Shown here: positions 30,001 to 33,000 of the stretch, piece after piece | How the letters are laid out: each line of letters begins with the position of its first letter | Numbering within the stretch: position 1 is the first letter of the stretch | DNA from: a virus | Taxonomy: Duplodnaviria > Heunggongvirae > Uroviricota > Caudoviricetes | Strand: one strand, 5' to 3' | DNA: 41,956 nt | Virus record (IMG/VR): IMGVR_UViG_2718218133_000008 | Location: 1 to 41,956 of that record | Program-made: the position numbers

Positions 30001-33000
30001 TTTGATGTTGTTAATCGCGGTACGGCTGTATCGTTCGCGCTGCTCGACGATCCCCAGCTTCACCATCTGGTGATATGCCTGATTAGCCGTCAGGCGGATA
30101 CCATACTGCTTCAGCAGTGCACTCAGTGACAGCGTGGGGCGGCTTGAGCCATCAGGCGCGTCAGCAGGAGCATCAATGGCATAGCGCGGTGCCAGATTCG
30201 GTAAGCCAACAGCCTCCTGGAGTTTCTGACAGGCCCCAAGCACTGAAGAGTTAGACAGGTTTAACTCCCTGCGCATAAAGTCCAGCAGAATCACACCAGC
30301 CTGCATCTTGTCAGCAGCCTGCCCGGATAATTTTTCCGGTGCGCTGGTTACCATATCGAAAGTACGGATCACCTTCAGATGGAATGACGGGCTGATCCAC
30401 ATTGCATAGGCATACACCAGTTCCTTGCAGACATACGTTCCCCGTTCATTTCCCCCATGAATCACACTCACCGGGTCAACACCCAAATTCTGGGTGTTGG
30501 TCAATTCATGAACAAGCTCAACAGTTTGTTGGCTGGAAAGAAACTTTCCTGGCTCCTTGGTTCTGGCATTTGCACCAGATGCTACTGCTGCGCGATGCAG
30601 ATCGTTCAGGCTGTAACGTCCATAAGCATCACGACGAACTTCAATACCATCAATGACCATCAGATTATTCATACTTCGTTTCTCCTCTTAATCAGGCGGC
30701 TGCACCCGCCGTTTTCTCGTACTTACTGATAGTGATCTCGACCTTCCCTTTCGGGATAACCGGTCCCCACTCCACCAGCATTCTTTTCACCTGTCTGTCG
30801 TCTTCCCACACACCCGCGTGGGTCAGGGCGTCAAACAGCGCCTTGTTATAGTTGTCCAGATCACGGATCCGGTTATCCGGCGGAAACAACACGATCTCCA
30901 CTGAAGCAGGTGCCGACGTTGGTTTCGGCAGACGACGTAACTGCTCAACTATTGCTGCGCACGCCGCGCTCTGAAATTTTCGCCCCGCCTCGCTTATCAG
31001 GCTCTTACCAGCAAATGCCCCTTTGTTGGGGTGTCGCCAGTACGTGTTCACACTGGGCGGGAAAGGAAGGATCAACTTCATACTTTCAAGCCCCTCTCAT
31101 GTAACCAGTGGGCTGCACGCAACCTGGCGTTCTCCTCACCGGCAAGCAGTGCGCGGATGATACCGACCGCTTCGCTGTCGTCGTCCTTCACTGCGGTATG
31201 AAGCGTGATCCCCCGGGCCACGCCACGCTTTATCGTGATGACGCCTTTTTTCTCCAGTGCGCGAAGATGCTCTACCGCTGCATTCACTGAACGGTATCCC
31301 AGCATGGTTGCCACCTCCTGATTGGTTGGCGGAAAGCCACGCTCTTGCTGGTAAGAAATCAGCATATCCAGCACCTGCTGCTGGCATTGAGTTAACGTCG
31401 TCATGCCGCCATCTCCCTGACAAGTTTTTCTGCCTGCTGGCGAATCTGCGCCAGAAACGCCTCACCACATGCCTCAAGTTCATCGCGCCCGATGTAGCTG
31501 ATTGCCGGTCCCTTCCAGGTCTTGTCGAAAACAGCAATAGCACCAGCGAAGAAAGCGCCTGTCGGCACCTGCTTCTCATCCTTCGGGATAAACCAGGCAG
31601 GCAGTTCAAAACCAATACGCCCGCGAATAAAAGCAATATGGTCTGCATCTTCCGGCCACCAAACTTCGCTGGTGGCAGCTTTGATCAGGAAAACATAGCG
31701 CCCGCCCTTATCACGCATGGCACTGGCATGCTTCATGATGTAACGCATGCCGGTGATGTATTGCCCCTCATGCTGACTGGCGCGGCTGTATGGGGGATTA
31801 CCAAAGGCAGCACCTTTAAGCTCCGCAAGACGTTCTGACCAGTCATGCGCCAGCGCATTGTCTTCCGCAGTGTAATAAGCGGCACATTTGGCGTTATCAC
31901 CATCAGTGAACAGATCCAGAACAAACGGGCCAAACAGGGTGTTAATTCCCCAGAAAATGTTATCCGGCGTGCGCCACTGATCGCCCACTTCCTTCAGTTC
32001 ATGGGCTGGTTTGTTCCGCAGTTCTACCAGCGCCTGGCAATATTTATTACTCATTAAGCCCCCACGTAAAAAGCATCCGCAATGTCTCCGGAAGTACAGC
32101 CCGGATGGGCTTCAATGAATTTCTGAACGTCATTTAACAGACTCATGATCACCCCCTGAATCCTGCCGGGATCTGGCTGTAGTCCACGTTGTCGTAACTG
32201 GCTTTGAAGTACGGGTCTTCACGTTTTTCTGTGTGCGTGCTGACGGACGGCGATAAGCGCAGGGAAAGCTCATCCCATTTTTCCCGCAACTTCGACGGGC
32301 TGAGCACGTTACGGCACCAGAACGGATCGCGGCTGACGCGGCTGTACATCTCGCAGATTTGTTTGTGAGTACGACCATCCTGCACACACATCAGGCGAAT
32401 TTCGTTTGCCCAGGCTGTCCAGTTCGGTTCTTTGGGACGAACCACCTCGCCGTCACATTCGGCGGCCTGCTCGTACAGGGCGATGATTTTTTTCCAGAGC
32501 CACTGTGCGCAGGTCAAATCATCCTGCGTTCCCCACTGGCGCTTTTTATGGCTGAATACAACCGCATCAGGATGGCGAGTTAAAAACTCCTGTTCAGCCG
32601 TTTGCGTGTCCGGTTGCGAAGCGTCCGGACGAGAAGAGGTTTTATTCTCTGTAGTAATCTCTGTTGTATTCTCTGTAAGATCATTGGGCCATTTTGACCC
32701 GATGACAGCGTGTCGTTTTGAACCAATGGATCGTGTCATTTTGCGCCCATCCATCAGGTAACTTTGACCCGATGGAGAAGTGCATTTTGACCTGATGGAT
32801 TCGTTCACTTTGACCTCTTCTAAAAGCTCACTTTCATAGTTGATCGTGTAGAAGTTGGTCATGTCACGCTTCGATTTATTGAGTTGCTCGCGACGCAAAA
32901 CCCCAAGTGATTTCAGGCTTGCAAATGTGCGTTTCAGAGTGGACTCTGACCAGAACGGAAACTGCTCCAGCCACTGTTCTGTCGTGTTATAAACCCAGCG

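What the first reader, a model, noticed from the sequence alone, without database searches (positions are those of the whole stretch)
31078..31404. Phage-encoded LexA DNA-binding domain without the autoproteolytic domain
Seen in sequence: a 108-aa protein aligning to the N-terminal winged-HTH of LexA but lacking the cleavage site and S24 domain, translationally coupled (ATGA overlaps) between rusA and the Dam methyltransferase. Inference: a non-cleavable LexA mimic could keep LexA-box promoters (including the dinI-like gene at 62-310) repressed during SOS, or act as a dominant-negative by heterodimerisation.
Basis: partly seen in the sequence, partly recalled or inferred. Interest (0 to 1): 0.6.

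Follow-up and report, generated by a model that had tools for sequence, protein, structure and literature searches.

The report
Prophage LexA DNA-binding domain without protease
A lambdoid E. coli prophage encodes a 108-residue copy of the DNA-binding half of the SOS repressor LexA that RecA cannot inactivate; it probably re-silences DNA-damage genes, and although it is widespread and already annotated, nobody appears to have tested it.

Summary
ORF 31078-31404(-) encodes 108 aa that match Pfam LexA_DNA_bind end to end (E=2.6e-19). The model superposes on E. coli LexA in its DNA complex (rmsd 1.1 Å, 50% identity). There is no S24 domain, and ATGA overlaps join the ORF to dam and rusA. The gene is not new: it is cdtI orf48 and SfV orf42, belongs to PHROG 362, and sits in 2232 of 5426 complete E. 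coli genomes as "LexA family transcriptional regulator". I found no functional study.

New here:
- A conserved, family-specific two-helix C-terminal tail.
- A recognition helix like LexA's, except that Glu44 is never kept.
- A sister clade in which the gene lies in an operon with a dinI-like gene, behind a promoter carrying a canonical SOS box (26 of 30 loci).
- Three strong SOS boxes in the window itself, two before dinI and one at a methyltransferase start.

Best reading (about 0.5): a RecA-insensitive surrogate LexA that rebinds SOS boxes after host LexA is cleaved. Main rival: a regulator with its own operator, like GIL01 gp6, which arose independently. Heterodimer poisoning of LexA is unlikely, because the domain LexA dimerises through is absent. 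Interest is moderate.

The parts
31078..31404 (-). Gene for the 108-aa LexA DNA-binding-domain-only protein (PHROG 362; identical to cdtI orf48)
31201..31404 (-). Residues 1-68: winged helix-turn-helix (helices 6-22, 28-35, 40-52; strands 56-58, 66-68), homologous to the LexA N-terminal domain
   Evidence: Pfam 1-65/65; AF2 secondary structure; Foldseek match to 3jso at rmsd 1.1 Å
31249..31290 (-). Residues 39-52: recognition helix SVNAAVEHLRALEK. It keeps LexA contact residues S39, N41, A42 and E45, with Glu44 replaced by Val
   Evidence: contact residues as listed in PMC3091678 and PMC13416735
31099..31182 (-). Residues 75-102: family-specific C-terminal pair of helices (75-88, 93-102), conserved down to about 40% identity. 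Proposed dimerisation element (inferred). Contains the vestigial A88-G89-E90
31401..31404 (-). ATGA overlap: dam stop codon with the start codon of the lexA-like gene
31078..31081 (-). ATGA overlap: lexA-like stop codon with the rusA start codon
31401..32054 (-). Upstream neighbour: phage Dam N6-adenine methyltransferase
   Evidence: PF05869, E=1e-45
30692..31081 (-). Downstream neighbour: RusA Holliday-junction resolvase
   Evidence: PF05866; adjacency conserved in 7 diverged loci
28866..29861 (-). DUF968/HNH nuclease, the most consistently linked downstream gene across both clades
   Evidence: PF06147, E=2e-81
28100..28882 (-). Q-type antiterminator that ends the delayed-early operon containing the gene
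   Evidence: PF03589
34406..35032 (+). cI repressor with HTH_3 and Peptidase_S24 domains (RecA-cleavable type). Its loss is what turns on the operon holding the lexA-like gene
   Evidence: gene order
1..48 (.). Two near-consensus SOS boxes (1-20 CACTGTTTATTCATACAGTT; 29-48 TACTGTATACAAACACAGTA), candidate targets
62..310 (+). dinI-like gene downstream of the two SOS boxes
   Evidence: PF06183, E=1.2e-19; phrog_189
26789..26808 (.). Third strong SOS-box-like palindrome (TACTGTAAAAATAAACAGTG on the minus strand), lying in codons 3-9 of the late-region N6_N4 methyltransferase. Candidate target
   Evidence: same site in SfV, L010 and 22 of 80 related loci

Best explanation
The gene encodes a RecA-insensitive surrogate of LexA. 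It consists of the LexA winged-HTH plus a family-specific two-helix tail and lacks the S24 autoprotease domain that RecA* acts on.

In this prophage the gene sits in the delayed-early rightward operon: replication genes, dam, lexA-like, rusA, KilA-N, DUF968, Q. It is therefore made only after DNA damage has cleaved cI, which is exactly when host LexA is being destroyed.

The proposed mechanism has three steps. The protein dimerises, either on DNA through contacts between DNA-binding domains as LexA does, or through the tail. It occupies CTGT-N8-ACAG SOS boxes on the host chromosome and on the phage (dinI at 1-48, methyltransferase at 26789-26808). It thereby re-represses SOS genes while RecA* is still active. 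Together with the phage DinI, which inhibits the RecA* coprotease, it would form an SOS shut-off module.

Shown: the domain identity, the absence of the protease, the operon position, conservation of the recognition helix, the presence of SOS boxes, and the SOS-box/dinI operon in the sister clade. Inferred: binding to SOS boxes, dimerisation through the tail, repression, and the benefit to the phage.
For: 1. The fold and sequence are those of gammaproteobacterial LexA residues 1-70 without gaps: 43% identity by BLASTP, 50% in the structural alignment, rmsd 1.1 Å to the DNA-bound form.
2. Four of the five helix-3 contact residues (S39, N41, A42, E45) are identical. S39 and N41 are invariant across the family (residue list from PMC3091678).
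3. There is no S24 domain. The C-terminal domain carries both the cleavage activity and the RecA* interface (PMC3159453), so the protein cannot be inactivated that way.
4. Operator-bound LexA has an extensive interface between its two N-terminal domains that stabilises the dimer about 1000-fold (PMC3159453). A DNA-binding domain alone can therefore plausibly read the 16-bp box.
5. The tail of about 35 residues is conserved to about 40% identity and is confidently helical, so it is under selection.
6. In the sister clade, 26 of 30 loci have a box scoring at least 18 within -1000 to -250 of the gene, against 2% of random 750-bp windows. That box overlaps the -10 of a sigma-70 promoter placed after a terminator. 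In 20 of 28 of these loci the first gene of the operon is dinI-like.
7. The window holds three boxes scoring as high as genuine E. coli SOS boxes, while the next best site scores 10.9. CTGT-N8-ACAG occurs 4 times against 0.57 expected, and no other inverted spacing of these half-sites is enriched.
8. mEp390, which carries a homologue 47% identical, also carries dinI behind an SOS box and a humD-like gene.
Against: 1. No binding or reporter data exist.
2. Glu44, a listed DNA-contact residue, is never Glu in the family (V, A, T or F). One subclade also has E45L, and one member has SQNTVFIHL. Specificity may therefore be relaxed or shifted in at least some members.
3. The upstream SOS boxes in the sister clade are explained by host LexA alone. 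They show that the gene is SOS-regulated, not that its product binds them.
4. The only characterised truncated LexA homologue, GIL01 gp6, recognises a different site and activates transcription (PMC6182141).
5. The methyltransferase box lies inside conserved coding sequence and may be conserved for that reason.
6. The sister-clade loci are related to one another, so the counts are not independent events.
7. My scoring matrix was built from SOS boxes recalled from memory.
8. I did not test whether phages carrying the gene have more SOS boxes than phages lacking it.
Confidence: 0.5

Rival explanations
1. It is a phage-specific transcription factor of the gp6 type. The LexA fold has been recruited to recognise a phage operator distinct from the SOS box, and the protein activates or represses phage genes such as late or nin-region genes rather than the SOS regulon.
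For: GIL01 gp6 is a truncated LexA homologue made from LexA-controlled early promoters. It binds its own site and activates late promoter P3 (PMC6182141). The family always lacks Glu44 and some members differ further in helix 3. The gene always lies just upstream of DUF968 and Q. PHROG annotates the family generically as a transcriptional repressor.
Against: Most members keep S-x-N-A-A-x-E-H-L, almost exactly the host LexA helix. No inverted-repeat spacing of CTGT half-sites other than N8 is enriched in the window. No candidate alternative operator was found. The phage already has Q for late-gene control.
Confidence: 0.25
2. It is a DNA-binding accessory of the recombination and nuclease module (RusA, DUF968/HNH, Dam) rather than a transcription factor, for example by targeting or restraining those enzymes on DNA.
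For: In 7 of 7 diverged loci examined the gene lies immediately upstream of rusA (one locus has a small ORF and one an inserted reverse-strand gene between them), with a 4-bp overlap in four of them. This holds with two different RusA subfamilies. DUF968/HNH follows in 33 of 34 further loci. A DNA methyltransferase often precedes the gene.
Against: RusA is absent from most sister-clade loci, so the pairing is not universal. Conserved gene order in lambdoid nin regions is common without functional coupling. The retained base-contact residues point to sequence-specific operator binding. No precedent is known to me.
Confidence: 0.12
3. It is a dominant-negative poison of host LexA acting through heterodimers, which would induce or prolong SOS.
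For: Mixed occupancy of one box by LexA and the phage protein through contacts between their DNA-binding domains is conceivable (PMC3159453).
Against: LexA dimerises through its C-terminal domain, which is absent here. The tail matches nothing in LexA's C-terminal domain or in the PDB. Co-transcription with dinI, an SOS damper, in the sister clade points the opposite way.
Confidence: 0.05
4. It is a decaying remnant of a captured lexA gene with no function.
For: A vestigial Ala-Gly-Glu aligns with the LexA cleavage site.
Against: The length is constant (about 104-118 aa). The fold and tail are conserved to about 40% identity across Escherichia, Citrobacter, Salmonella, Hafnia and uncultured phages. 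The gene is translationally coupled, and it is present in 2232 E. coli genomes and in inducible phages.
Confidence: 0.03

Closest known systems
Host LexA (E. coli; PDB 1jhh, 3jso)
   Same: The N-terminal winged HTH is the same: 43-50% identity, gapless over residues 1-70, rmsd 1.1 Å. The recognition helix is SVNAAVEHL against SPNAAEEHL. A vestige of the linker and cleavage-site region remains.
   Different: It has no S24 serine-protease, dimerisation or RecA*-binding domain. Glu44 is replaced by Val. It has a novel two-helix C-terminal tail. It is encoded in a phage delayed-early operon rather than behind its own SOS boxes; in the sister clade it is behind an SOS box.
Bacillus tectivirus GIL01 gp6 (truncated LexA homologue, activator of late promoter P3; PMC6182141)
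   Same: It is phage-encoded, essentially a LexA_DNA_bind domain alone (PF01726, E=8e-14), lacks the cleavage and catalytic domain, and is produced once LexA repression is lifted.
   Different: BLASTP finds no alignment between the two. gp6 resembles Bacillus LexA and this protein resembles gammaproteobacterial LexA, so they are independent truncations. gp6 is 66 aa with no tail. gp6 binds a non-SOS site and activates transcription, whereas the function here is untested and predicted to be repression at SOS boxes.
PHROG 362 / NCBI 'LexA family transcriptional regulator' (SfV orf42, cdtI orf48, SfII, mEp460, mEp390 gp43, Stx2c phages; pham 237 in PMC8136144)
   Same: This is the same family. 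The window protein is 100% identical to cdtI orf48 and matches the PHROG profile end to end (E=3e-59).
   Different: Nothing differs. These are database annotations without experimental characterisation.
Uncleavable LexA mutants, LexA(Ind-) (my own knowledge)
   Same: The predicted net effect is the same: SOS boxes stay occupied despite RecA*.
   Different: Those are full-length dimers with a disabled cleavage reaction. This is a natural protein with the DNA-binding domain only and a different C-terminus.
DinI and plasmid PsiB, mobile-element SOS dampers (my own knowledge)
   Same: They are mobile-element genes that oppose SOS, and dinI is co-operonic with this family in the sister clade.
   Different: They act on the RecA filament and do not bind DNA.

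Membership tests
LexA repressor (TIGR00498 equivalog) | N-terminal LexA-type winged-HTH DNA-binding domain | tested here: met
   PF01726 matches 1-65/65, E=2.6e-19; 3jso at rmsd 1.1 Å
LexA repressor (TIGR00498 equivalog) | C-terminal S24 peptidase domain with a Ser/Lys dyad | tested here: not met
   No Peptidase_S24 hit. The protein ends at residue 108. TIGR00498 covers only positions 1-91 of 203 and scores 70 bits against a cutoff of 111
LexA repressor (TIGR00498 equivalog) | Functional Ala-Gly scissile bond | tested here: inconclusive
   A88-G89 aligns with LexA A84-G85. It lies in a predicted helix, varies in close homologues and is absent in distant ones. With no catalytic domain in cis, cleavage in trans cannot be tested here
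LexA repressor (TIGR00498 equivalog) | Binds CTGT-N8-ACAG SOS boxes | not testable with these tools
   Four of five contact residues are conserved.
LexA repressor (TIGR00498 equivalog) | Dimerisation through the C-terminal domain | tested here: not met
   The domain is absent. The tail has no similarity to it
Phage truncated LexA homologues (GIL01 gp6 type) | [quoted passage not shown] | tested here: met
Phage truncated LexA homologues (GIL01 gp6 type) | Expression downstream of SOS or LexA control | tested here: met
   In the window, through the S24-type cI and the rightward early operon. In the sister clade, directly behind an SOS-box promoter
Phage truncated LexA homologues (GIL01 gp6 type) | Sequence relatedness to gp6 (common descent) | tested here: not met
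   BLASTP finds no alignment at E<=100. The two share only the Pfam domain
Phage truncated LexA homologues (GIL01 gp6 type) | Activates a late promoter from a non-SOS operator | not testable with these tools
   No alternative operator was found. Needs experiment
PHROG 362 | Full-length match to the family profile | tested here: met
   1-108 against 1-106/106, E=2.6e-59. The sister-clade protein also matches, E=4e-40

The most novel reading that the evidence does not exclude
Roughly two in five E. coli strains carry, in their lambdoid prophages, a RecA-proof surrogate LexA that takes over SOS boxes once host LexA is cleaved. On this reading it acts with phage DinI as a mobile SOS shut-off module. 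The module would end mutagenesis, toxin and colicin expression, and the induction of rival LexA-controlled prophages during lytic growth. In the sister clade it would act as negative feedback inside SOS-induced lysogens. This would be a convergent counterpart of GIL01 gp6 with the opposite regulatory sign.
Probability: 0.4. Interest if true: 0.7.

Novelty: new member of a known kind. Interest (0 to 1): 0.48.

Why it matters
If the protein does occupy SOS boxes, many E. coli, Shigella and STEC strains carry a second SOS repressor that RecA cannot switch off and that appears during prophage induction.

That would change how SOS kinetics are interpreted in lysogens. The affected processes include mutagenesis, persistence, colicin and Shiga-toxin-phage induction, and cross-talk between prophages that use LexA-controlled antirepressors.

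It would also be a second, independently evolved case of a phage borrowing only the DNA-binding half of LexA. The test is simple: an EMSA, plus a reporter assay in a lexA(Def) strain.

Tried and rejected
1. Literature. Ten full-text searches found no functional study of this enterobacterial family. They found only catalogue listings (PMC8136144) and the GIL01 gp6 work. The LexA-DNA structure paper could not be fetched, so contact residues are taken second-hand.

2. Tail homology. A profile of the C-terminal tail against all PDB sequences gave nothing below E=0.8. Foldseek matched only the wHTH. A weak Pfam NIL hit (E=0.07) is noise.

3. Alternative operators. Counting CTGT/ACAG half-sites at spacings 0-20, both inverted and direct, showed enrichment only at N8 for inverted repeats. 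The four everted ACAG-N8-CTGT sites are GC-rich and lie in coding sequence. The excess of direct repeats looks like a coding-sequence effect.

4. The box at 38709-38724 fits the bare pattern but scores only 6.2, so I treated it as chance.

5. RusA coupling as a functional pair. It is supported in 7 of 7 loci found through protein contexts, but most sister-clade loci lack RusA, so I downgraded it.

6. Technical dead ends. A scan with an alignment of distant homologues failed because it had no conserved stretch. The P0188 scan found nothing. The first IMG/VR scan returned only copies 98-100% identical.

7. No promoter or terminator consensus match (simple scan) lies within or next to the gene on the minus strand.

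8. Not done. There was no control set of lambdoid phages lacking the gene for comparing SOS-box frequency, no multimer structure prediction (the tool takes one chain only), and no dN/dS calculation.
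Full report
**1. What is there**

The window is a lambdoid E. coli prophage. It is 99.8% identical over the tested 1.5 kb to phage cdtI and about 96% identical over the structural genes. A 100% match lies in an E. coli chromosome.

On the minus strand the rightward early operon reads as follows: cII-like and replication genes, dam (31401-32054), the ORF in question (31078-31404), rusA (30692-31081), KilA-N (29863-30672), DUF968/HNH (28866-29861) and Q (28100-28882). A terminator, an N6_N4 methyltransferase and the lysis genes follow. The cI gene (34406-35032, +) has HTH_3 and Peptidase_S24 domains, so it is of the RecA-cleavable type.

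The ORF is 108 codons long and has a GGGAG Shine-Dalgarno. ATGA overlaps join it to both neighbours. A simple consensus scan found no promoter or terminator match within or next to it on the minus strand. It is therefore a delayed-early gene, expressed after cI is lost.

**2. Identity**

- Pfam LexA_DNA_bind covers residues 1-65 against profile positions 1-65 of 65 (E=2.6e-19).
- The NCBI lexA equivalog matches only its first 91 of 203 positions and scores below its cutoff.
- There is no S24 domain.
- phmmer against the PDB returns only LexA entries.
- The AlphaFold2 model has a mean pLDDT of 83. It shows a winged HTH (residues 1-68), a disordered linker (71-74) and two helices (75-88 and 93-102).
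- Foldseek places residues 1-68 on DNA-bound E. coli LexA at rmsd 1.1 Å and 50% identity. The tail is unmatched.
- The alignment to LexA has no gaps to residue 70. It then continues so that phage A88-G89-E90 falls on the LexA scissile A84-G85-E86.

I read that last point as a fossil of a truncated lexA gene, not a working cleavage site. It varies among close homologues and vanishes in distant ones.

**3. It is a known, common, uncharacterised family**

- The protein matches PHROG 362 ("transcriptional repressor") end to end.
- The gene alone is found in 2232 of 5426 complete E. coli genomes, with up to four copies per genome. It is annotated there as "LexA family transcriptional regulator".
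- It occurs in 61 phage records, including SfV orf42, SfII, SfIV, cdtI orf48, mEp460, mEp390 and many Stx2c phages.
- IMG/VR holds at least 532 relatives.
- An exhaustive HMMER search found full-length relatives with the tail down to about 40% identity.
- Ten literature searches found only catalogue mentions, such as pham 237 in PMC8136144.
- The one characterised analogue is GIL01 gp6. It is a truncated LexA homologue that activates the late promoter P3 from its own binding site (PMC6182141).
- gp6 and this protein share the Pfam domain but give no BLASTP alignment. Each resembles its own host's LexA, so they look like independent truncations.

**4. Features that bear on mechanism**

*(a) Recognition helix.* LexA's listed DNA contacts are S39, N41, A42, E44 and E45 (PMC3091678 and PMC13416735). 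The phage protein has S39, N41, A42, V44 and E45. Across the family S39 and N41 are invariant. The commonest helix is SSPNAAAEHLKAL, against LexA's RSPNAAEEHLKAL. Position 44 is never Glu. One subclade has E45L and one member has diverged further.

*(b) Dimerisation.* LexA dimerises and meets RecA* through the missing C-terminal domain. Operator-bound LexA also has an extensive interface between its two N-terminal domains (PMC3159453). The conserved amphipathic tail is a candidate extra dimerisation element, but this is inference only. It has no detectable homologue.

*(c) SOS boxes in the window.* CTGT-N8-ACAG occurs four times against 0.57 expected. With a position-weight matrix, three sites score 22.8-24.6, within the range of genuine E. 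coli boxes. The next best site scores 10.9. Two of the three lie upstream of the dinI-like gene (PF06183). The third lies in codons 3-9 of the methyltransferase. No other inverted spacing of the half-sites is enriched.

Caveat: I built the matrix from SOS boxes recalled from memory.

**5. Comparative context**

Contexts of six homologues at 40-52% identity gave seven distinct loci. In these:
- The gene lies directly upstream of rusA, with a 4-bp overlap in four loci. One locus has a small ORF in between and one has an inserted reverse-strand gene.
- This holds even where RusA belongs to a different subfamily.
- The upstream neighbour varies but is often a DNA methyltransferase.

A scan seeded with P0134 gave 34 more loci. 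Together with L008-L010 these define a sister clade with a different and very regular arrangement:
- a terminator;
- a sigma-70 promoter whose -10 is overlapped by a canonical SOS box. In L105 this is TTGACC, 16 nt, TATACT, with the box TACTGTTTATTTATACAGTA at 7320-7339. L008 and L010 look the same;
- a dinI-like gene, present in 20 of 28 loci (PF06183, E=1e-21);
- orfX (phrog_1813), the lexA-like gene, and orfY (phrog_1212);
- sometimes rusA;
- DUF968 and Q.

Twenty-six of 30 such loci have a box scoring at least 18 between -1000 and -250 of the gene. Only 2% of random 750-bp windows from the fetched loci reach that score. The remaining loci have a weaker box in that interval (one locus, score 15.0) or strong boxes further upstream.

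The loci fall into perhaps seven sequence groups, so they are not 30 independent events. Even so, the box and the -35 persist while the surrounding intergenic sequence diverges.

Two further phages fit the pattern. mEp390 carries a homologue 47% identical, a dinI gene behind an SOS box, and a humD-like gene. SfV has the methyltransferase box.

**6. Interpretation**

In both arrangements the protein is produced after LexA repression has collapsed. In the sister clade this is direct. Here it happens through cleavage of cI.

The protein carries LexA's reading head but nothing RecA* can act on. In the sister clade it is co-transcribed with DinI, an inhibitor of the RecA* coprotease. The most economical reading is a RecA-proof surrogate LexA that re-occupies SOS boxes. 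It would provide SOS shut-off during lytic growth here, and negative feedback in SOS-induced lysogens in the sister clade. I put this at about 0.5.

The rivals are:
- *A gp6-like regulator with its own operator (0.25).* The universal loss of Glu44 and the precedent of gp6 keep this alive.
- *A role tied to the RusA/DUF968 recombination module (0.12).* Synteny suggests it, but RusA is not universal.
- *Heterodimer poisoning of LexA (0.05).* There is no dimerisation domain to pair with.
- *A dead remnant (0.03).* Conservation contradicts it.

**7. Verdict**

The gene is already catalogued but functionally unstudied.

The added value here has three parts. First, the SOS-box and dinI operon of the sister clade. 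Second, the conserved tail. Third, the independent origin relative to gp6. Together these turn a generic annotation into a sharp and cheaply testable hypothesis. Interest is moderate.

Noticed in passing
window 26789-26808 (within methyltransferase ORF 25764-26816, minus strand): A near-consensus SOS box (TACTGTAAAAATAAACAGTG) occupies codons 3-9 of the late-region N6_N4 DNA methyltransferase. This gene lies just downstream of the terminator at 27297-27316. The same box at the same place occurs in SfV (34170), in L010 (8739) and in 22 of 80 related IMG/VR loci. It may be a LexA roadblock or operator, or only a conserved coding sequence. I could not find a convincing promoter.
   Followed up: partly
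window 1-48 and 62-310: Two tandem, near-consensus SOS boxes spaced 28 bp apart (start to start) precede a dinI-like gene at the tail-fibre end of the prophage. This is a typical LexA-controlled moron. The downstream ORF 394-870 (+) has no Pfam or PHROG match.
   Followed up: partly
L016, L031, L077 and others at about -4455 from the lexA-like gene; L043, L083 and others at about -3557; L003 836-855: In many related prophages a near-perfect SOS box (TACTGTTTTTACATACAGTA or TACTGTTTTTATATACAGTA; TACTGTTTATAAATACAGTA in L003) lies inside the coding sequence of the cI-type repressor. It appears to fall in the linker between the HTH and S24 domains. The window's own cI lacks it. The function is unknown.
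   Followed up: partly
L105 7210-10174 (also L098-L119, L126, L008-L010): A conserved operon controlled by an SOS box: terminator, promoter with box, dinI-like, orfX (phrog_1813), lexA-like, orfY (phrog_1212), optional rusA, DUF968 and Q. This places the late-gene antiterminator Q downstream of a LexA-controlled promoter. I did not examine whether transcription reaches Q.
   Followed up: partly
proteins P0128, P0135, P0141, P0144, P0148, P0156, P0159, P0163, P0164: Some relatives in the 1.8-billion-protein library contain two LexA DNA-binding domains in tandem in one chain of 140-350 aa, which would make them possible single-chain dimers. I did not examine them further.
   Followed up: no
H3-H8 (phages 1720a-02, Kati, SfII, SKA5); L007 4590-4826: In several otherwise collinear phages the match to this 1.5-kb region is split by an insertion of about 400 bp, and a PerC-family transcriptional activator gene is annotated there. 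PerC/Pch-type regulators control LEE virulence genes in EPEC and EHEC (my own knowledge).
   Followed up: no
window 28866-29861 (-): The DUF968 protein has a C-terminal HNH motif (HNHc_6, E=4e-6) and a very weak match to the RecA-dependent nuclease family (PF16786, E=0.1). It is the gene most constantly linked to the lexA-like gene across both clades.
   Followed up: no
L128 (phage mEp390) 20396-21308: mEp390 carries dinI (with an SOS box at 20706) and a UmuD/HumD-like gene next to attP, as well as the lexA-like gene gp43. That makes three SOS-related genes in one phage.
   Followed up: partly
L010 9794-11390; L008 3863-5232: Reverse-strand cargo genes lie near the module in two loci. L010 has an AcrVA2-like gene next to a Cas1-like gene. 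L008 has a bacterial RNase A-type toxin with a CdiI-like immunity gene, placed just upstream of the SOS-box promoter.
   Followed up: no
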